Shown here: piece after piece, positions 841 through 63,686 of the stretch
How the letters are laid out: each line of letters opens with the position of its first letter
Position numbering within the stretch: the stretch's first letter is position 1
Origin: Camelus ferus
Taxonomy: Eukaryota
DNA: 64,000 nt
Direction of reading: 5' to 3'
Assembly: GCF_009834535.1 (NCBI RefSeq)
Contig: NC_045696.1
Location: 50,160,001 to 50,224,000 of the forward strand
The notes under the pieces: generated by a model
Seen by the model: the letters and a program-made list of their open reading frames with translations, nothing else
Told to the model about the DNA's origin: nothing
Database searches by the model: none
Translations under genes and position numbers: made by a program

Positions 841-2800
841 CATTAAGTCCTAGCCACAGTAATCAGACAAGAAAAATAAATAAAAGGGATCCAAATTGGA
901 AAGGAAGAAGTAAAGCTGTCACTATTTGCAAATAACATGACACTACTCATACAATATCATAAAGATGCCACAAAAAACTACTGAAGCTCATTAATGAATT
1001 CTGTAAAGTTGCAAGACAAAAACTTAGTATACTGAAATCTATTGTAGTTCTATACACTAACAACAAACTCAGAAAGAGAAATTAAGAAAATAATCCCATT
1101 TACAATGGTATTAAAGAGAATAAAATACCTAGGAATAAATCTACCTAAGGCAATAAAAGACCTGTGCTTAGAATTATAAAACACTGATGAAAGAAACTGA
1201 AGGTGACACTAGCAGATAGAAAGATACACTGTGTTCTTGAATTGGAGGAATTAATATTGTTAAAATGACCATTCTACCCAAGGCAATCTACAGATTCAAT
1301 ACATTCCTTATCAAAACACCAACGGCATTTTCCACAGAAATAGAACAAATAATTTAAAATTTTCTATGGAAACACAAAAGACCCTGAGTAACTGAAACAA
1401 TCTTGAGAAGGAAGAATGGAGCTGGAGGAAACACACTCTCTGACTTCAGACTATACCACGAAGCTAAAGTAAGCAAAACAGTATGGTACTGTCACAAAAA
1501 CAAACACATAGACCAATGGAACAGAATAAAGAGACAGAAATAAACTCACACACTTATGGTCAATTAATCTATGACAAAGGAGGCAAAACTATACAGCAGG
1601 GAAAAGATATTCTTTTCAATAGTGATGCTGGGAAAACTGGACAGCTACATGTGAAAGAATGAAATTAGAATATCCTCTAACACATATACAAAAATAAACT
1701 CAAAATGTATTAAAGACCTACATGTGAGACCAGAAACCATAAAACTCCTAGAATAAAACATTTGCAGAACACTGTTTGACATAAATTACAGCAATGTTTT
1801 TTGGACCTGTCTTCTAAGGCAAAGGAAACAAAAGCAAAAACAAACAAATAAGACCTAATAAAACTTAAAAACTTTTGCATAGCAAAGGAACCATTAACAA
1901 AACACAAAGACAACCTACTAAAAGGGAGAAAATATTTGCAAATGATATGACTGAAAAGGACTTAATATCCAAAATATGTAAACAGCTCATACAATTCAAC
2001 AACAACAAAAAACAAACAACCTAATTAAAAAATGAACAGAAGACCTGAATAGATATTTTTCCAAAGAAGACATACAGATAGCCAACAGGCATATGAAAAG
2101 ATGCTCATCATTGCTAATCATCAGGGAAATGCAAACCAAAACCACAGTGAATTATCACCCCACACCTGTCAGAATGGCTACAAATAAATGTTGAATTATC
2201 ACCCCACACCTGTCAGAGAGACTAAAAATAAATGTTGGCGAGGATATGGAGAAAAGAGAACCCCTCTACTCTGTTGGGGGAATGTAAATTTGTGCAGTCA
2301 TTATGGAAACCAGTATGAAAGTTCCTCAAAAAGTTAAAAACAGAACTACCATATGATCCAGAAATTCCAGCCCTAGGTATATATCCAAAGAAAATGAAAA
2401 CACTAATTTGGAAAGATAAATACATCTAAATGTTCATAGCAGCATTATTTATAATAGCCAAGATATGGATGCAACCTAAGTGTCCATCAACAGATGAATG
2501 CATAAAGAAGATGTAGTGTATATATAACAAAGCAGAAACAGACTCATGGATATTAGAGAACAAACTGGTGGTTACCAGTGGGAAGTGGGAAGGAGAAAGG
2601 GGCAAAATAGGGTAGAGGATTAAGAGGTACAAACTACTACATATAAAATAAATAAGCTGCAAGGGTATATTTTACAGCACAGAGAATATAGCCAATATTT
2701 TATCATAACTGTAAATGTTGTATATTATAATTTTGAATCACTCTGTTGTTCAACTGAGACAAATATAATATTGTAAATGAACTATGTCTCAATTTTTAAA
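841..2800 (+). mobile_element. LINE-1, 5'-truncated (decayed ORF2 3' part plus 3' UTR)
   Basis: Typical L1 ORF2 text (gtcctagccacagtaatcagacaagaaaaa...ccaaattggaaaggaagaagtaaa...; acctaagtgtccatcaacagatgaatg) followed by an L1 3' UTR; many stops and frameshifts. Confidence 0.9.
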
Positions 2801-4300: not shown

Positions 4301-4448
4301 TGTGACCACAAATTACAATCTGTGAGTCATGGTAGCCTTCTGATGTTTTATGTGAGTTCAATGTCTAACATAATCACTTGATAATCTGAGCCCTTTTCTT
4401 GAAATATGATATGAAAAACATTAGGTAGTCTTGGTATCTAAAACTCAC

Positions 4449-4771
4449 TTGTCACATTAATGGTAACTGAGTGGCTTTCAATGAATCCAGACAAAGAGTT
4501 CACTGAACGGCGGTATGACCCATTTTCACTAGCAAGCACCTGATTAAAATGCAAAATAAAAATAGAAATATTCTTCCTTTCTTCTCAACCCATGTATCCC
4601 TGAAGTCTGTCCCCAAGATGTAAACAGCTGTTTCCTTCGAGCTTGCACCAGGCCCCAGCAAGTCTGTTAGCACAGTATTTCACAGGCATTCCAGTTCAAA
4701 TGGATCCCCTGCTGACACAGCACATACAGAATATCTCTTAATGTAAAGTCGTATGTCACATGACTCTTCCC
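4449..4771 (-). pseudogene. BTLA: BTLA exon 2 (Ig domain), disrupted by a frameshift, a nonsense codon and a lost Cys
   Basis: Acceptor ttttgtttttatctctcag|GG and donor ACA A|gtgagt are intact. Reads EESCDIRLYIKRYSVCAVSAGDPFELEC-[1 nt missing]-VKYCANRLAGAWCKLEGNSCLHLGDRLQGYMG*EERKNISIFILHFNQVLASENGSYRRSVNSLSGFIESHSVTINVT, recognisably the BTLA Ig domain. Length is 323 nt, not a multiple of 3 for a phase 1-1 exon. Confidence 0.9.
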
Positions 4772-5089
4772 CTGAGAGATAAAAACAAAATTAAAATCAA
4801 ATCTGTTCTGGAAGGACTAAATATTTGCCATTTCAACAGTTTCTGACAAAGATTTCTCAAGTATGATTCTATAATTTTCCCAATAACATTTTCCAGTATA
4901 TTAACCCTTATTAGCAGAGTGTCTGCTAGTGACACATAGTAGGCATATAACAAATATTTGTTGAAAAAAATCAAAATTTCCTCAATTTTCAAAATATTAC
5001 GATTTTCATTATTATAAAATTAGATTTTATTTTATTTTATTATCTTCTAGCTACTCCAATAATAGCAAATAATAACAATTTCTTGTCAA

Positions 5090-5310
5090 TTTCTTATTGT
5101 ATTGTAGGGGCTGTTCAAAACACATTAAATATTTCAAGTTATTTAATTTTCACAACAAAAATAATATATATTATTATGAACCTTGTTTTAGAGATAAGGG
5201 AACTGAGGTAGCAAGAATTTGTCTAAAATGTATATGCTAATAATTAGGAAAATCAAGATTCAAATTTGTATGAGTTCATTACTCTATAATTCATTAACCA
5301 TTACTCTGTT
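5090..5310 (-). mobile_element. MIR SINE remnant
   Basis: MIR-core-like ttatttaattttcacaac...ttttagagataaggggaactgagg. Confidence 0.55.
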
Positions 5311-18215: not shown

Positions 18216-18610
18216 AAGCACATCGAGAGGAGGAGCAGATATTGTACCATACTCCCAGCGTGATATATCACTGAACATTCATTTACTTCATTTCACAAAG
18301 AATAGTTTACATATTCTCCCAGCCAATATGATTTCTGTTTAATAATATTTGACTTCCGTTGTAGCTATGTGATTGTAGGCATCTGATAGAAAGTGAAAAA
18401 TCCAGCCAGCCATCTAAGCACTCCGTCAACATAATAGCACATACTTACAAACATGAAAATGCTTAGATGACTGAAGGGGACTTTCATTTTGCACTTGGTT
18501 GTGTGTCATCCCGGCATCACAAAGACAAATTCCAAACCTCACAGTTCCAGAACCGAAGATGACATCATGTAGGATTTCAGGGACTGTATTTTCTGATTTA
18601 AAACTGACAA

Positions 18611-18709
18611 GGAACAACAAGGATTTACTGTATAGCACAGGGAACTGTATTCAATATCTTGTAATAAACTATAATGGAAAAGAATCAAAGAAGAATATAG
18701 GTATACAGA

Positions 18710-18798
<89 letters not shown>

Positions 18799-18857
18799 CA
18801 AATCACTTTGCTATACAGCTGAAACCAACACAATAAAAAAAAATCAGAAAAAAAAAC
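18611..18857 (+). mobile_element. Short L1 3'-end fragment containing a (TAAA)n(TA)n compound microsatellite (about 18710-18794)
   Basis: aacaaggatttactgtatagcacagggaactgtattcaatatcttgtaataa...aatcactttgctatacagctgaaac followed by an A tail. Confidence 0.8.
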
Positions 18858-19649: not shown

Positions 19650-19737
19650 CACTGATATTCCAAATGCCTAGATGTAGGATTAGAAAGAGGACCCAAGACA
19701 ACTTCCCAATACCAAGCATGGCAAGCGATGACTTCAT
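19650..19737 (-). CDS. BTLA: BTLA exon 1 (coding part): signal peptide, intact
   Basis: Reverse strand reads ATG AAG TCA TCG CTT GCC ATG CTT GGT ATT GGG AAG TTG TCT TGG GTC CTC TTT CTA ATC CTA CAT CTA GGC ATT TGG AAT ATC AGT G|gtaagg = MKSSLAMLGIGKLSWVLFLILHLGIWNIS(G). This is colinear with the human BTLA N-terminus as recalled (MKTLPAMLGTGKLFWVFFLIPYLDIWNIHG). 88 nt, phase-1 GTAAG donor, downstream of ATG3 on the same strand as in human. Confidence 0.93.
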
Positions 19738-28910: not shown

Positions 28911-29058
28911 CTTTTCTTTTTTTATCTTTTTTTGTGTGGGGGGGTGTAATTAGGTTTATTGATTGATTGATTGATTTTTAACAGAGGTACTGGGGATGGA
29001 ACCCAGCATCTCCTACATGCTAGGCACATCCTCTACCACTGAGCTATACCCTCCCCCC
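28911..29058 (-). mobile_element. tRNA-derived SINE, camelid vic-1-like
   Basis: Minus strand ggggggagggtatagctcagtggtagaggatgtgcctagcatgtaggagatgctgggttccatccccagtacctct... (A/B box-like head) with an A-rich tail. TSD taattctt at 28903-28910 and 29059-29066. Confidence 0.85.
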
Positions 29059-55090: not shown

Positions 55091-55172
55091 TTACATTGTG
55101 AAGTGTCTTGTGTAGTCATATTCTATTGTTGGAATGACAGCTTGTACAAATTTCAAGAAAATTAGAAGATAC
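55091..55172 (-). CDS. ATG3: ATG3 last coding exon with stop codon (approx. exon 12)
   Basis: atttag|G TAT CTT CTA...ACA ATG TAA; 82 nt; [26 protein letters not shown]. Confidence 0.97.
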
Positions 55173-56777
55173 CTAAATGTGTTTAGATAAGGAAAATAAA
55201 TTGGTAAATAGTTCTATGATTTAAGCTAACATTGTAATTATCCATTTTATCAAGCAATAACTTCTCAGGTAAAAATACAGAAGACAAAATCTTAAATCAA
55301 GTATATTAAAAAAAAATTCACTCATGCAAGTTTGTGTCTATTCAACACCAGGTTCTCCATATCTTTAAGAATGTCTAACCCATTCTATTTAATATTTGCA
55401 TGTGAAACTTCTTAGTGAGTATGAGCTCAAGTATTTTGATATAAAAATAAGGGGAAGGCTATATATATTTGAGTCGAAAATGTTCTTTTTACTGCCTTTA
55501 AGTTTGCTACAGCGTGTCAGATAATAAGACAAGGCAAAGAATATAAAAGCACTGAAGCAAAAGAGCAAAAACTAATTAAGTGAAACCACATAAGGACTGA
55601 GTCTAGGTTTGTATACGTACCTGCCATAGAATCTGCTACACTGCACTGTCTTTAATAAAATCCTGAATTTTTTTCTATGCTCCACTGCACTTGGAAACAC
55701 TAAGAGCTTATTTTTTATTGGAGGAATTGATGACTCAACTATGAATTACATAGTCTTCCAAGTTTCTATCTAGCATCCAACAGAGATGAATGTTCAAATT
55801 ATGCGTAACAGGATTTCAGGTTTGGACCAGAAGTTCTTGGTTTGTTTCAGTATCAAACCAGCCCAGTGCTTCTCTGAGGGACATGCTCTATTAGCAACAC
55901 TTAGGTTATCTGTAGTTCTGACACAGTGGTGACTCCTCGGTCTACAACTAACACCGAGTGGCAACTAACAACTAACAACTAACCACCAAGTCTAATAGCA
56001 ATCTAGCACCAAACTAATTCAAGCTTTTTGGAATTCAAATCATTGGCTTTGGCTGCTTTTGATGAATCCATGCTATGGGTACATGTATTTCAGGATCCAG
56101 TAGTTTACTTAATTCCTCTTGCAACCCCAGATAATTGAAGGGGTGCTTTTAGCTGGAGAAAAATGAAAACACTGTATTTTAAGACTACCTGAAATAGGCT
56201 TCATGTGCTTTACTTTTTAATTACCCTACTTGTTTAATCTGAATCCTCTGCTTCAGAGAGACCTCAGACTGACAGAACCCAACTTCACTTTTACATCATG
56301 GGAAAGTGCATTTCTGATAATATGGTAAATCAGAAATAAACTTAAGAAAAAGACGCTCATGTGTTAGCCTCTAAATTCATAGGTTACCCATCTTTCATCA
56401 ATAGATTAAGCCCATTGAGTTTCTTTTCCATCAAGCGTTAACAGTTTTGTAAAGACATACTCTTAGCCATTGCCTCTTCAACAAACAAAAGCATTTGGCA
56501 AGCTGCTACCTAGAAGCACATACTGCTCTGAGGCTCTGCAACAAGGCAGAGCTAATTGGTGCACACAGGGACATGTGCTAATTAACTAAACAAGGCCAGA
56601 ACTACCACAATGTAACATTTTCTAAATAAAAGCTTCCCACTAAGACTTCTAGTTCCTACCAGGGACTAAAACAAGTTATAGGTATTGTGCCATTAAGTTT
56701 ACACTAAATTTCCCAAAAAGGAAAGAAAAAATCTCAGAAGCCAAATTGCCACTAATCACATACACAGGTAAGGATAC
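55173..56777 (-). other. ATG3: U12-type (minor spliceosome) GT-AG terminal intron of ATG3
   Basis: The 5' splice site GTATCCTT matches the U12 consensus RTATCCTT. A branch-site-like TTTTCCTTATC lies at 55196-55186, with its A about 16 nt from the AG, and there is no long polypyrimidine tract after it. Confidence 0.88.
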
Positions 56778-56846
56778 ATATGAACACCAAGCTCTCCTCC
56801 TCCTTCTGCAACAGTCTCAATAATTTTCTTCATCACCTCAGCATGC
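56778..56846 (-). CDS. ATG3: ATG3 penultimate coding exon (approx. exon 11)
   Basis: ttttag|G CAT GCT...CAT AT|gtatcctt; 69 nt; [22 protein letters not shown](M). Confidence 0.96.
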
Positions 56847-58792
56847 CTAAAAGCAAAAGAACAAATCATCTTAGTATAGATCTATTAGATCAAAATAGGA
56901 AAAACAAGTTTTTTGTTTGTGAAGAAGTCTACTTTACTATTGTCAGTGAATTAATTTTAATACATAACAGCAATACTGTAAAATAGTCTCCTCCCTACTC
57001 CCCAAGAAGACAGACTGTTGAGTCATGTAGACAGCTTTACTAGGGTAGAGAATAATTTTAAAAAGCTACAGTAGTCACAAATGAACACAATGGGACTACT
57101 TAGCTTTCCTATAATGCAGACGGAAGAGGGGTGGGGAGGGCAGAAAATCAGAGAAAGGAAAATCATGCCAGAGCATAATTGCAGAGCAAGGGCTGTCTGC
57201 TCTGAGAAACAAAAAAAGAATCAGACCAAGCAAATTTAAATAAGCGACATGGTAACAGTCGGTTAAAAGAAAAACAGAGCTATTTCTAATGCTGTAATTT
57301 TGACTGTTCAAACATTTAGCTGAGAACAAGCCAAAAGTGAGTTAAAGAGAAGCTAATTGGTCAGAATCAAGCAGTTAATATTTTTTTTCCCTTGTTCTAA
57401 TGTGTATTGTAAAAATTATCTGATTCTATTCAAAAAATTTTTTGGCTTCATATAAAGAAAGATATTTATCTGAAGTTTTCCACAAGCTTTTTCGTGGCCA
57501 ACTGGTGTCTCTCCTGTGCCAGAGAAAAGTGATAGCAAAGTAACTGCTTGGGCACATAACGGCATCACAGAAAAGAAATGAACTTTTATACGTATCCTGG
57601 CTTAAATAAAGCCACTTTAATTTTTATGAATATAACCTTCACTGACAGAGGCAGTCACCTTAGAAGATGAGAGTAAATGTATTAGCCCTGAGAATATAAA
57701 GACATAATTTGAGGTAGTTGATGGAAAGGCCTAAAATGTCCTTGCAGTCTCATTTAACAAGCCCCCAGCTCTCTGTGTGTGTGCCACATTTACATTATAT
57801 TCCAGAACAGTTATTTATTAAAATATTTAACATTAACATTACCAGTTAAATTAGTTATCTCTTTTCCCCACTAAGTAAAGTTTATACCTCAGAAAAAGAG
57901 CTGGCTCAGTTTGATAAATGCCATTCTAAAATCTCAAACCATAGAGGGACCAACAAAATAATTCTCAATACGAAAACCTTTTAGGTTATTCTAAACTTAA
58001 ACAATTACTTGAATTACATTTGACATTTAGCAATATTAACAGCCTTGACATAAATTGGAAAAATGAACTAGGCTTTCTATGGGATAAAGTTTAGGAATAA
58101 AGGGGTTGTAAAAAGAAAAAATTTTTTTAGTGTCAAAGGATTTTTAAAAACTAGAATGTTGCATCTAATTAGTCAATGGAGTATCAGAGTTTTCATTTGA
58201 AAAATATTGCTCCCAGAATTTCTCAATGATTTGTAGAAGTTACCCACTAGAAATAACTAACTGAAAGAAATTTGCATGTTAACGTTGTATTTTGTTTCTT
58301 TTAAGGAAAATCCTAAACAAATCATGTATATAGACTCAGCTTCACTTATTTGGCCCTGTTAAAACATTGATTCAAAGAAATCCTAAATTATAAAACCAAT
58401 AAAAGGAGATAAATGGGTCACCTAGAAAAAGCACAGAGTTAACTTTATATTCCACATTCACAGAAAGAAGCATTATAATAGAGCAAACTATATCTAAATG
58501 ATTAGTATTTTTTAACCTAAAAAGGATCTTCCAAACTATTTTGGAGCTTATAACAACAGCAGTAAAATCACAAATATATATTATAACTAAACACACACAA
58601 AGAGCAAAAAAAAAAACATTCTTAATGAATCTAAACAAATTGTTAAGTTTTTTTTCTTATATATTTAAGCATAAAAACATTTCTAAAGAAGACAAAAGAG
58701 AATTTTGTTCATTAAGTAAATTTTTTGTTAGGGCACTATGCTTGCACACACTCCCAAGTAATAAATCCATGAAGAATAATACACACACATAC

Positions 58793-58920
58793 CTGCATGG
58801 GTGAACTGAACACATAGGAGGTGGTGGAAGATGAGGGTGATTTTCAATGGTCACTGTTTTCTTCACATGATCTTGACTGATGTCTTCATACATGTGCTCA
58901 ACCGTTAAAGGCTGTCGTTG
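58793..58920 (-). CDS. ATG3: ATG3 coding exon containing the catalytic Cys (HPC motif; approx. exon 10)
   Basis: ttcag|CAA...TGC AG|gtatgt; 128 nt; [42 protein letters not shown](R). Confidence 0.97.
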
Positions 58921-59693
58921 CTGAAACCATAAAAAAATGCTTTGAAATTACTGTTTTAGGCCTAAACTTCAGTGTTTGTATTTATCCAAACCTCCCATAT
59001 CACTTGCAATTTAGAATTCTAGACTACTCGGAATTACCAGATTATTGGGGGGAAATTATATACCCAGTAGGGAGGGAGGAGACAGTCTGTTCAGCAAGGC
59101 CATGTGACATCAGCCACCATCTAATGCAGTAAAGATCCCACAAAAAAGACAGGTTCATGGCTATCAAAACACTTTATAACTTTATAACATCTTTAAGGTT
59201 TATATCGTTTTATTTTCCTATTTCCCATTTATAGTCATTGTAATGCTGACAGGTTAAACAAGTTAGTTTTATTTTAGTTATCCTTTAATTCAATTATGTG
59301 AATGGGTAAAAAAAGGTTTCTGTATTAAGGGGAAAAAAAAATTACATGCAACATGATCATTCTGTAAATGCCTATATATATCCAAACATCCAATAGATAT
59401 AATCCCAAACACAATTTAATAAAACAAGCCAACTTCAGCTTCCCTCAAATTTTGAAGGTATAAGCTTAGTGACCAAGAAATAAACATGTAACAGATTGTT
59501 TAATTCTTGGTAGTGTTGTTGTCACACTGAATAATTGATAGTTTCTTCAAAATAAGAATCAAAGTCAACATTAATCATAAAATTACAAAACAAATGATTT
59601 CTAAAATTTAAATGGCCAAAATACATACTATGGACATAATGACAAAGGGATGAAACCTAATGATTTAAAACATTTACATGAAAATAAGTTTAC

Positions 59694-59849
59694 CTCATCA
59701 TAGCCGAACAACCATAGTCGTGGCGTCTGGTAATATTTATCGTAAGTGATGTAAAGGTCATAAGTTCTGGTTTGCAAAATAGCATCTTCACCTCCAGCAT
59801 CAGTTTTAGCTTTACAAGCTTCTACTATTTTCCTTGTATCCAGGGTAGC
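59694..59849 (-). CDS. ATG3: ATG3 coding exon (approx. exon 9)
   Basis: ccag|GCT...GAG|gtaaac; 156 nt; [52 protein letters not shown], hallmark ATG3 sequence. Confidence 0.97.
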
Positions 59850-60113: not shown

Positions 60114-60429
60114 CTGTTATAAAAAGCAACAAAAGATTAATCAAGTTCAAAATAATTTCCTAAACCAAATTACGTATTACTTCAGAGCCATCATTCAAAA
60201 ACTAGGTTTTTGCTTTGTTTCTGACTGAAGATACTGAATAAATGTGAGGGAGCTAATTTTATACTTCCAAAGCAGCAGACACTTTACCTGACAGAGTCAG
60301 AGAAAGTTAGCATGGTTAAGGCCTGGTCTGTGCTACAGACTATTAATAATACCAGCTGGCACAACAGTACTCTGGGGTGGTCAGTGACTCCATAGTATGC
60401 ACAAGGCTATTTATATAATTGCATAAAAC

Positions 60430-61845
60430 GTGCTTGTTAAAGTCATCAGTGATTTCCACTTTGCTGAATCCAGCGGTAAATTCCCAGTTTTCATCTTAAT
60501 TGACTGCACAGGAACATCTAGTATGATTTATTCCCTCCTTGGAAGGTTTTTCTTTTCTCAGCCTTTAAGATACTACATTTTCCTGGCCTTCCTTCCACCT
60601 CATTAGCTTCTCCTTCACTATCTCTTAGACTGGTTCCTCTTTATCATCTCACCATCTCGACCCTTTTTTACCCCTAAACTCTGCAGTAACCAAGAGCTCA
60701 GTTTTTGGACCTTGTCTCTTCTCTATCTACACATACTCCCTTGATGATTTCACCTAGTCCCAATGGCTTTAAATGCTGATGACTCTCAAATGTATTCCCT
60801 GACTACAAATCCTGGATACTTGATTGTTTGCTCCAATGAATGACTAAAGGGCAGCAGAAATATCACATTAAAAACTGAGTTGCTGGGGTTGGGGATGTAA
60901 CTCAGTGGTAAAGTGGGTGCCTGGCGTGCACGTGGTCATGGGTTCAATCCCCAGTGCCTCTGTTAAGGGTGGGGAAAAACAAAAAACCTGAGCTCCTGAC
61001 TCCCCCTCCAGAGCTGTTCAGTCTAGATTTTCCCATTCTCAATTAATGACACTTTTCCAAAAGAAACTCAGGTCAAAAATCTTGACCTCTTGGTTTCTCT
61101 CATATCACATTCAATCCAGCAGCAAATCCTTTTGGGCCCTAGCCTCAAAGTATGTCCAGAATTTTGTGGTTTCTAATCAATTCCAATGTTACTACTCAAG
61201 CCCAAGCCACAGTCATCTCTTGTCTATATTATCAAAATAACCGCCTAACTGTCCCTATCTCTTCCCCCAACACTGAAGTCATAGAGATTCTGTTAAGATG
61301 TTAAATTCCACTTTAGTTGTTCTTCTGTTTAGAAAAGCCCTCTAAAGGCTTCTCATCTCACTTTGACTTAAAGCCAGGGCCCTACACCATCTGGTTCTCA
61401 AGTTACCTCTCTGACCCCATGTCTTATTACCGTCTCCTCACTCTTGTGGAGCCTCCTTGCAGTATTTTATACAAACCACACATACTCCCCCTTCAGGGCC
61501 TTTGCATGCTTCCTCAGACCTCCAAATAGCTTGTTCACTCACTTCCTGCCGGGCTTCACTCAAAGGCATATTCTCGATGAGGTTTTTCTTCACTACCGAT
61601 TTAAAAATTACAACACTCATCCTACCACAGGACTCCCTACCCACTCTGTCCTTTATTTTTCTCCCTAACACTTACAGCCATCTAAGACAGTACTATGTTT
61701 TGCTTATCTACTGTTCTGTTTGTGCCCCCTAAATCAAATGTTAGCTCCATGAGATCATGTCTACTGCATTATCTCCAGCACCAAAGCAGTATCTGATACA
61801 TATACACTGCATTGCCCAACGTATACTTGTGGAATAACGAATGAA
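60430..61845 (+). mobile_element. L2 LINE remnant in an ATG3 intron (interrupted by a SINE)
   Basis: Pyrimidine-rich L2 body (ttctctatctacacatactcccttg...tgctgatgactctcaaat...cttcagggcctttgca) ending ttgtggaataacgaatgaa. Confidence 0.75.
60885..60983 (+). mobile_element. vic-1-like tRNA-derived SINE
   Basis: ggggatgtaactcagtggtaaagtgggtgcctggcgtgcacgtggtcatgggttcaatccccagtgcctct plus an A-rich tail; imperfect TSD aaaactgagttgct / aaacctgagctcct. Confidence 0.8.
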
Positions 61846-63686
61846 AATTGACTGTTACTGTTAGATACAATCGACACTGTTTTTTAAGCAAAATTCGACA
61901 TATAGCAACTCTTTAACTATCCATGGGAAATGTAACAAACATACTAAAAGACTAGTTTTGTCTTTTGTTTCTGCCTGAAGATATTGAATAAATGTGGGTG
62001 AGCTAACTCTATACTTCCAAATCAGTGCTTTATTCATACAATTCCCCACTCCAACTTGGACAACTGTGTGCCATTCAGAGACAGATGGAATCCAGAAAGA
62101 TTATTTGTACAAGAAGGTTGTTCTGACAATTATGAGACATCCAGGTGGAAATGAAACTAAACAAGTAGATCTGAAGTTCAGGAGATCTGGGTTGGGGGTT
62201 TAGACATGGAAGTCTTGAGCAAAGACAGGGTATATGAGGTTGCTGTGAGCAATTCTGGTTACAAGTAATTTACTTGGATTTCTTCAAAGAATGAGATTTT
62301 ACAATGGAAATAAGGACAAGGCTCTCGCTCGATTTCAGGAACAGATATACAGCTAGGTTTCATGGTAACTCAAAAATAAGTTAGGAAACAAACTGAAAGA
62401 TACTTTTAAGTCAAGGCTACTCTGGTGATTAGGCTAGGCTGTGCTGTCACCTCCTCATCGGCAAACACCACTTGCCATTATGGTGCTTCAACTCTACTGA
62501 CGCGACCTACTTCTGCGTGCAACAAAACGTGTCTATCTCACCATAAATTCTATGTGTTTGGGTGATTCAGCACTTCACAGCTTCCAAAATGCCTGCCACC
62601 GGTTTTTCATACTCTTCCTTTTTCCCAACTGCTAACTCTCTCTAAATGCATACATACATAGTCATATTTAAATCCTCATAGAGAATCTAATGTAATTTAG
62701 ATCATCATTTTTCCTGTTGTACATAATTCCATACTGGACCACAGTATGCAATTACAGAAACCGTAAAAGTAGACAAAAATCTACCTGGGAGTGTAAGGAG
62801 TGAGCAGAAAAAAAAAAAGTGAAACCTTATGAAACAGTAACATTTAGCAGCTGGGCAAAAGTAAAAGAACCCCAGAAGAAGATTTAGAAGAAACAGTCAA
62901 GGAAGGAGGAGGAAAACCCCATGTCATAAAAAACAAGGTAGGGAAAAAAAAGAGGAGGAAATGGTTAACAGAATCAAATAAATAATGCAGAGAAGATAAG
63001 TACAATAAAGACAGACTGCATTTAACAGAGAGGTTGCCCTGGTGACAGCAACTTCTTCAACTAATTTTAATCTAAGGTTTCACCTGCATAAAGACTATAA
63101 TGCTTATAAAATATGCACCTTTGAATAGCCATATACATTTAGACTTATATTACCCTGTTGTTAGTACAGTAAGTTTCAGTCTCTTGAAACAATGATTCGC
63201 TGAAAGAGTGATTCTCAGCCGGTATTCCTAGAAAAGCACTTCAGATTCTCACAGAGCAGTGAGGGGTTCTGTGTAGTTCAAAAGACCCCATTAAGAATCA
63301 TTATCATAAGGTTTTAGTAGTAAGATATTATCAAAAAGGAAAAAGAAAATACAAAATGCCAGAACAAATTTCATTCTGTTCTTAGTTTAAGAATTAGCTC
63401 AAGAATCTGTATCTTACAGTTGTACCCAGAATTAAAGATTTATGATTAACACTGATCTCAGCAGAAATAATGCTATCAAGGCTACGGTCTAGGTAAAGCA
63501 GAAGAGTTCTGCACTGTTTAAGATCAAGATAAGTTCTGTACTGATTAAATTTAAACCAAACAAGGCCTCTCTGTGCTGTTAAATGTTAAAATTTAGAACT
63601 CAGTGGAATAGAACTCTTAACTCGAATTACATATATTCCAAAATCAATATTCCACTGTGATTAAAGCAAATTTGGAACACAAATAC

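What the first reader, a model, noticed from the sequence alone, without database searches (positions are those of the whole stretch)
4680..4688. BTLA lesion 1: 1-bp deletion at Cys58-Pro59 giving an immediate stop
The minus strand reads GAA TGC CTG TGA where the orthologous frame needs GAA TGC CCT GTG AAA TAC TGT (ECPVKYC). One C is missing from a CCC run, the exon is 323 rather than 324 nt, and TGA falls at 4682-4680. A stop this early with downstream introns would be expected to trigger nonsense-mediated decay.
Basis: seen in the sequence. Interest (0 to 1): 0.7.

Follow-up and report, generated by a model that had tools for sequence, protein, structure and literature searches.

The report
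Broken BTLA immune-brake gene in camelid
The gene for BTLA, a receptor that dampens T- and B-cell activation, is really broken in this camelid genome, with three separate lesions in its ligand-binding exon, so these animals appear to be natural mutants for an immune checkpoint.

Summary
The 1-nt deletion is real. BTLA exon 2 (4771-4449, minus) is 323 nt and stops at TGA 4682-4680, after 59 codons. A spliced RNA contig from a run not flagged as the source crosses the site with no difference, and 14 of 24 listed runs hold all sampled words of the stretch, so assembly error is unlikely. Two more lesions lie in the ancestral frame: TGA at Trp92 (4587-4585) and Cys118>Arg (4509-4507), the buried disulfide partner of Cys58. 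The locus is the orthologue, downstream of ATG3, in a probable camelid. Best reading (0.8): a unitary pseudogene that is still transcribed. Rival (0.13): only the Ig exon died and an exon-skipped, ligand-blind receptor survives; exons 3-5 lie outside the window. No camelid or pig BTLA was named in three protein searches, the one whale record looks decayed, a paper implies pig BTLA is a pseudogene, and hippo and ruminants are intact. That suggests repeated loss in even-toed ungulates, not proven here. NMD is predicted, not shown. Ten paper searches listed no report for camelids, and this scan had not noted it on other DNA. Annotation databases may already flag it.

The parts
19650..19737 (-). 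BTLA exon 1 (signal peptide): 88 nt, ATG and GTAAG donor intact, phase 1
   Evidence: tblastn; sequence (no lesion; 3 departures at 14 columns conserved in at least 80% of homologues, a count that 14 of 67 homologues reach or exceed)
18449..18503 (-). 3' part of an extra (cryptic or alternative first) exon in intron 1, with a GTAAGT donor at 18448; spliced to exon 2 in an RNA contig; its 5' end was not seen
   Evidence: 55 loose letters beyond 4771 in run X20; the 30 shown match 18449-18478 with 1 mismatch, chance mean 0.00; donor. The 18503 end is inferred from the loose length.
4449..4771 (-). BTLA exon 2 (Ig domain): 323 nt, splice sites intact, coding frame destroyed
   Evidence: acceptor used in RNA
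4680..4688 (-). Lesion 1: 1-nt loss at Cys58-Pro59; the next codons are Leu59 and TGA (4682-4680)
   Evidence: carried by the RNA contig of X20
4585..4587 (-). Lesion 2: TGA in the ancestral frame at Trp92 (Trp in 97.8% of 92 homologues)
   Evidence: inside the X20 contig, 42 nt from its end
4507..4509 (-). Lesion 3: CGT (Arg) in place of Cys118 (human Cys115, partner of Cys58; Cys in 92 of 92 homologues)
   Evidence: not covered by the RNA contig
55100..59800 (-). Last exons of ATG3, the upstream neighbour (approximate span): synteny marker
   Evidence: motif scan; Pfam PF03987 E 2e-12 for 58792-58920
28982..29053 (-). tRNA-Ala-derived SINE, used as a lineage marker (second copy 60890-60963 +)
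   Evidence: the likeness to the camelid Vic-1 SINE is recalled, not tested

Best explanation
This is the orthologous BTLA gene of a camelid, now a unitary pseudogene that is still transcribed and spliced. SHOWN: exon 1 joined to exon 2 gives 59 residues (signal peptide plus a third of the Ig domain) and then stops. Two further lesions lie behind the frameshift, so no simple re-splicing or reversion rebuilds the Ig fold. The frameshift and the Trp92 stop are in RNA of a run not flagged as the source, which differs from the window at one base. INFERRED: selection on the gene was relaxed, and lesions and missense changes then accumulated. Exon1-exon2 mRNAs are NMD targets. No HVEM-binding BTLA reaches the cell surface, so the HVEM-to-BTLA-to-SHP-1/2 brake is absent and is presumably covered by PD-1 and CTLA-4. 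Total divergence is no greater than in intact relatives, so the loss is probably not as old as the camelid stem. Hippo and ruminants keep BTLA, so any loss in pigs and whales must be independent; I put three independent losses at about 0.55.
For: Three lesions in one 323-nt exon. The window departs at 6 of 25 columns conserved in at least 90% of 92 homologues; the largest count among the homologues is 5, and 79 of 92 have 0 or 1. Cys58-Cys115 is a buried disulfide (PMC5464627, passage). RNA contig X20 has 0 differences over 4543-4771. 14 of 24 listed runs hold all 85 sampled words; 5 of them (3 samples, 3 studies) are not flagged as the source. The chance that no sampled word spans the deletion is 0.048. 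ATG3 is adjacent. No stored homologue exceeds 82% identity to the window's Ig piece. No camelid is named among 7, 120 (of 147) and 74 listed hits, nor among the cluster members listed. The only RNA junction seen into exon 2 comes from a cryptic exon, and all 13 candidate acceptors for it still end in a stop.
Against: Exons 3-5 are outside the window and no genome is held, so the tail was not examined, and a second intact copy elsewhere cannot be excluded directly. Exon 1 looks unharmed. Three of four runs laid (X1, X14, X17) gave no contig over the exon; the tool drops human-like records, so direct alignment rests on one contig of depth 5.5. The window's branch (0.126) is not longer than the paths to hippo (0.100) or sheep (0.144). 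Database absence is weak: 27 hits were unlisted, several rows are unnamed, and corrected low-quality models may be missing. PMC12831279 is inconsistent on pig: the text implies a pseudogene, while supplement 1 lists BTLA among pig proteins. BTLA was not found in 3 supplements of the cetacean stem-loss screen PMC6760925.
Confidence: 0.8

Rival explanations
1. Only the Ig exon is dead. The gene survives as an exon-2-skipped receptor (signal peptide, stalk, transmembrane helix, ITIM/ITSM tail) that cannot bind HVEM and may signal without ligand, like ligand-independent CTLA-4.
For: Exon 1 keeps its ATG, donor and hydrophobic core. Exon 1 ends in phase 1 and the ancestral exon 2 is a multiple of 3, so skipping keeps the frame. 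An Ig-less BTLA isoform is reported (PMC8438243, passage) and appears among mouse, rat and rabbit records. All six listed models of three emballonurid bats are 139-198 aa; the four read lack the Ig exon. Ligand-independent CTLA-4 is a precedent (PMC3342378, passage).
Against: A search built for tail-containing proteins of 91-291 aa found the bat models but named no camelid among 74 hits. Exon 2 keeps both splice sites and is spliced in. An 88-nt exon often stays lesion-free by chance after a recent loss.
Confidence: 0.13
2. The null allele is polymorphic or confined to one species, or this is a dead duplicate while an intact BTLA exists elsewhere.
For: No whole genome was available. Four runs hold only 0.82-0.94 of the words, and the one of them laid gave no piece over the exon. 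Contigs drop rare alleles.
Against: Three lesions plus three further changes at conserved columns on one haplotype. Position next to ATG3. Only one copy of each exon in the window. No close intact protein in three searches.
Confidence: 0.05
3. Homopolymer consensus error in the assembly.
For: The site is an inferred short C run. DNA contigs could not be aligned directly.
Against: An Illumina RNA contig carries the same letters with 0 gaps, 142 and 86 nt on either side. 14 runs hold all sampled words. The two substitution lesions are not homopolymer errors.
Confidence: 0.02

Closest known systems
BTLA / CD272 of hippopotamus (XP_057553914.1), sheep, goat and cattle; human structures PDB 2AW2, 6NYP, 8F60
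   Same: Same exon 1 and exon 2 layout; 82% identity over the 78 residues after the frameshift; E 7e-21 to human BTLA; ATG3 upstream.
   Different: Frameshift at Pro59, stop at Trp92, Cys118Arg, Pro67Leu, Val69Gly, Asp112Glu; no complete Ig domain can be made.
Pig BTLA and CD160, described as pseudogenes mis-annotated as low-quality proteins (PMC12831279, citing Dawson and Lunney 2018)
   Same: Same gene apparently inactivated in another cetartiodactyl lineage.
   Different: Must be an independent event, since ruminants and hippo are intact. I read only the passage, its section and supplement rows; the supplement lists pig BTLA as a protein, and the 2018 paper is not held.
Humpback whale BTLA KAM9089915.1 (LOW QUALITY PROTEIN)
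   Same: Signs of decay: 2- and 1-residue gaps in the Ig domain and no ITIM/ITSM tail.
   Different: Cys58, Pro59, Trp92 and Cys118 are kept, so the lesions are not shared; status rests on one predicted protein.
Ig-less BTLA isoform of mouse and human; ligand-independent CTLA-4
   Same: What an exon-2-skipped transcript of this locus would encode.
   Different: There it is a minor isoform beside an intact gene; here no such transcript was observed.

Membership tests
BTLA orthologue | Best sequence match is BTLA | tested here: met
   All 5 PDB hits and all 7 database hits are BTLA or its cluster
BTLA orthologue | Lies downstream of ATG3 on the same strand (human order recalled) | tested here: met
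BTLA orthologue | CD200 on the far side (recalled) | not testable with these tools
   outside the window; no genome held
Functional BTLA receptor | Open frame through the Ig exon | tested here: not met
   stop after 59 codons
Functional BTLA receptor | Three disulfides 34-63, 58-115, 72-79 | tested here: not met
   Cys118 (human 115) is Arg even in the ancestral frame
Functional BTLA receptor | Transmembrane helix and ITIM/ITSM tail | not testable with these tools
   exons 3-5 lie outside the window
Unitary pseudogene | Several inactivating mutations at the ancestral locus, introns kept | tested here: met
Unitary pseudogene | Lesions confirmed in independent data | tested here: met
   lesions 1 and 2 in one RNA contig; word index; lesion 3 only through the index
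Unitary pseudogene | Relaxed selection | tested here: inconclusive
   excess of changes at conserved columns, but branch not long; no dN/dS without orthologous DNA
Unitary pseudogene | No functional copy or functional isoform elsewhere | tested here: inconclusive
   only database absence

The most novel reading that the evidence does not exclude
Camelids have turned BTLA into a ligand-blind receptor. The HVEM-binding exon is dead, but an exon1-exon3 transcript with an intact ITIM/ITSM tail is kept by selection as a constitutive brake. Emballonurid bats, whose models lack the Ig exon, did the same independently, while pigs and whales also dropped HVEM sensing by BTLA. That would be repeated uncoupling of a checkpoint from its ligand, possibly to escape herpesviral HVEM mimics of the UL144 type (speculation).
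Probability: 0.12. Interest if true: 0.8.

Novelty: new member of a known kind. Interest (0 to 1): 0.52.

Why it matters
BTLA is a clinical checkpoint target, and mice lacking it develop autoantibodies and a hepatitis-like disease with age (PMC3342378, passage). A mammal lineage that lives without it is a natural knockout. It shows the brake can be dispensed with and invites a search for compensation in HVEM, CD160, LIGHT and PD-1. If pigs and whales lost it separately while hippo and ruminants kept it, there are three replicate losses with close intact controls, which makes the cause testable. In practice, BTLA RNA counts in camelid immune transcriptomes would not mean receptor, and camelids should lack self-tolerance to the BTLA Ig domain, which may help nanobody discovery (inference).

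Tried and rejected
Whole-genome search: no genome held. Runs X1, X14 and X17 gave only 34-42-nt unrelated pieces at 4930-4971 and nothing over the exon; a hole proves nothing. Rescue by another acceptor inside exon 2: of 22 AGs tested, 4 stay open in frame; they keep only 18-135 nt of the exon's 3' end, the two longer ones have poor pyrimidine tracts (6 and 9 of 20), and none rebuilds an Ig fold. Rescue by the cryptic exon: 13 of 13 candidates end in a stop. Dating: protein branch lengths are too coarse, and the free tree has support of 47-54 inside Cetartiodactyla. Pfam does not recognise the exon pieces alone. Rfam found only the two tRNA-like SINEs. Unnamed Logan proteins P0140, P0142, P0146, P0147 and P0154 look like intron-plus-last-exon frames of other mammals; not assigned. 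Papers: 10 searches (listings only unless cited). Supplements with no BTLA: PMC6760925 (3 files) and PMC12127551 (6 files). PMC13754592 gave only a missense score, top decile, from a file cut when stored. Dawson and Lunney 2018 is not held. TOGA loss tables, NCBI gene pages and bioRxiv supplements could not be seen and may already record this loss.

Full report
Observation. On the minus strand, 4691-4680 reads GAA TGC CTG TGA. The frame before it translates as the start of an Ig domain ending ELECL-stop. A shifted frame continues with 78 codons that match only BTLA among solved structures (5 of 5 hits, best E 6.6e-21). tblastn with four cetartiodactyl BTLA proteins changes frame at 4686, between Cys58 and Pro59. 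The exon is 4771-4449, 323 nt, with a good acceptor and donor; the 324 nt of orthologues is inferred from the protein alignment. That the missing base is a C of a CCC run follows from the Cys-Pro codons and was not seen in orthologous DNA.

Is it real? The run index listed 24 runs. Fourteen hold all 85 sampled words of 4330-5200; 9 of these are flagged as possible sources and 5 (3 samples, 3 studies) are not. The chance that none of the sampled words spans the deletion is 0.048. All runs share the same words, so this is one test, not fourteen. I laid 4 of the 24 runs. X1, X14 and X17 returned nothing over the exon; the tool states that human-like records are dropped and that holes prove nothing. 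X20, an RNA library not flagged as a source, gave a 284-nt contig of depth 5.5 whose 229 nt match 4543-4771 with no other letter and no gap. It therefore carries the deletion and the second stop. It leaves the window exactly at the acceptor, and its next letters match 18449-18478 with one mismatch, where a GTAAGT donor follows.

More lesions. In the ancestral frame there is TGA at 4587-4585 in place of Trp92, and CGT at 4509-4507 in place of Cys118. Among 92 distinct homologous Ig domains (kept from 120 after removing duplicates and partial ones), Trp92 is 97.8% and Cys118 100% conserved. In human BTLA the equivalent Cys115 forms a buried disulfide with Cys58 (PMC5464627, passage). The window departs at 6 of 25 columns conserved in at least 90% of homologues (Pro59 and Trp92 by the lesions; Pro67Leu, Val69Gly, Asp112Glu, Cys118Arg). 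The homologues reach at most 5, and 79 of 92 have 0 or 1. At the 80% threshold the window (8 of 38) is exceeded by four bats, so the excess is clear only at the most conserved sites. On a fixed species tree the window's branch is 0.126, against 0.100 to hippo and 0.144 to sheep from the same node. The gene has not decayed for the whole camelid stem; a closer date cannot be given.

Locus and lineage. Exon 1 lies at 19737-19650 with ATG and donor intact. The last exons of ATG3 lie at about 55100-59800 on the same strand, the order I recall for human, so this is the orthologous locus. The sequence is about equally far from hippo, sheep and humpback (22, 21 and 23 differences). The window holds tRNA-Ala SINEs that resemble the camelid Vic-1 family as I recall it, and earlier unchecked notes on this genome call it camel or camelid. 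I take it as a camelid by inference.

Mechanism. Exon 1 plus exon 2 encodes 59 residues and stops 231 nt before the next junction, which predicts NMD by the usual rule (recalled). Any escaping peptide lacks most of the Ig fold and the membrane anchor. The cryptic exon does not help: 13 of 13 candidate acceptors end in a stop. Of 22 alternative AGs in or near exon 2, 4 stay open but keep at most 135 nt. That the only junction seen comes from intron 1 rather than exon 1 fits NMD or an alternative start, but it is one contig. BTLA normally binds HVEM and recruits SHP-1/2 through its ITIM motifs (PMC10466776, passages); that input is lost.

The serious rival is an Ig-less receptor. Skipping exon 2 keeps the frame, such an isoform is reported (PMC8438243, passage), and the models of three emballonurid bats are all short, the four I read lacking the Ig exon. 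Exon 1 shows no unusual decay. Against this, a search aimed at tail-containing proteins of 91-291 aa found those bat models but named no camelid among 74 hits, and exon 2 is still spliced in. Exons 3-5 could not be read.

Other lineages. Across three searches (120 listed of 147; 74 hits) and the cluster members listed (15 of 28 and 15 of 19 shown for the two large ruminant clusters), cetartiodactyl BTLA was named only for ruminants, hippo and one humpback whale record marked low quality. That record has two short gaps in the Ig domain and no signalling tail. No camelid, pig or other whale was named. [quoted passage not shown] BTLA was not found in the supplements of the cetacean stem-loss screen. 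Repeated independent loss is therefore likely but unproven.

Novelty. Ten full-text searches (listings seen) showed no paper on BTLA loss in camelids, and two relevant supplement sets had no BTLA. The scan's own notes hold nothing on this locus or its relatives. Automated annotation (NCBI, TOGA), which I could not see, may already flag it. Lineage-specific gene loss is a known kind of event. The interest lies in the gene, a checkpoint whose mouse knockout is prone to autoimmunity, and in the possible convergence. Verdict: observation confirmed; pseudogene 0.8; interest 0.52.

Noticed in passing
window 18449-18800: The cryptic exon spliced to exon 2 lies just downstream (minus strand) of an antisense L1 3'-end fragment (18619-18685) and an AT-rich tandem tract (18709-18796), which may supply its acceptor. 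An ATG near 18509 is in frame with exon 2. The RNA contig differs from the window at 18475.
   Followed up: partly
P0125, P0127, P0128, P0139, P0196, P0197: BTLA models of three emballonurid bats (Saccopteryx leptura, S. bilineata, Rhynchonycteris naso) are 139-198 aa; the four read join exon 1 straight to the stalk or tail. Possible clade-wide loss of the Ig exon with an intact tail.
   Followed up: partly
P0010: Humpback whale BTLA is marked low quality, has 2- and 1-residue gaps in the Ig domain and an unrelated C-terminus without ITIM/ITSM.
   Followed up: partly
P0039, P0044, P0075, P0116: Phyllostomid and mormoopid bat BTLA Ig domains depart at 4-5 of 25 highly conserved columns, the most among intact homologues.
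   Followed up: no
PMC12831279: Pig CD160, the other Ig-family HVEM ligand, is also named as a pseudogene, with 3 exons against 6 in human; camelid CD160 is worth checking.
   Followed up: no
P0086: A spotted hyena record named 'ATG3 enzyme, partial' is a BTLA sequence, probably misnamed after the neighbouring gene.
   Followed up: no
window 60197-60275 and 61947-62025: A 79-nt direct repeat, 85% identical, 1750 nt apart, inside ATG3 introns.
   Followed up: no
window 2148-2237: A 44-nt tandem duplication inside an L1 fragment in BTLA intron 2.
   Followed up: no
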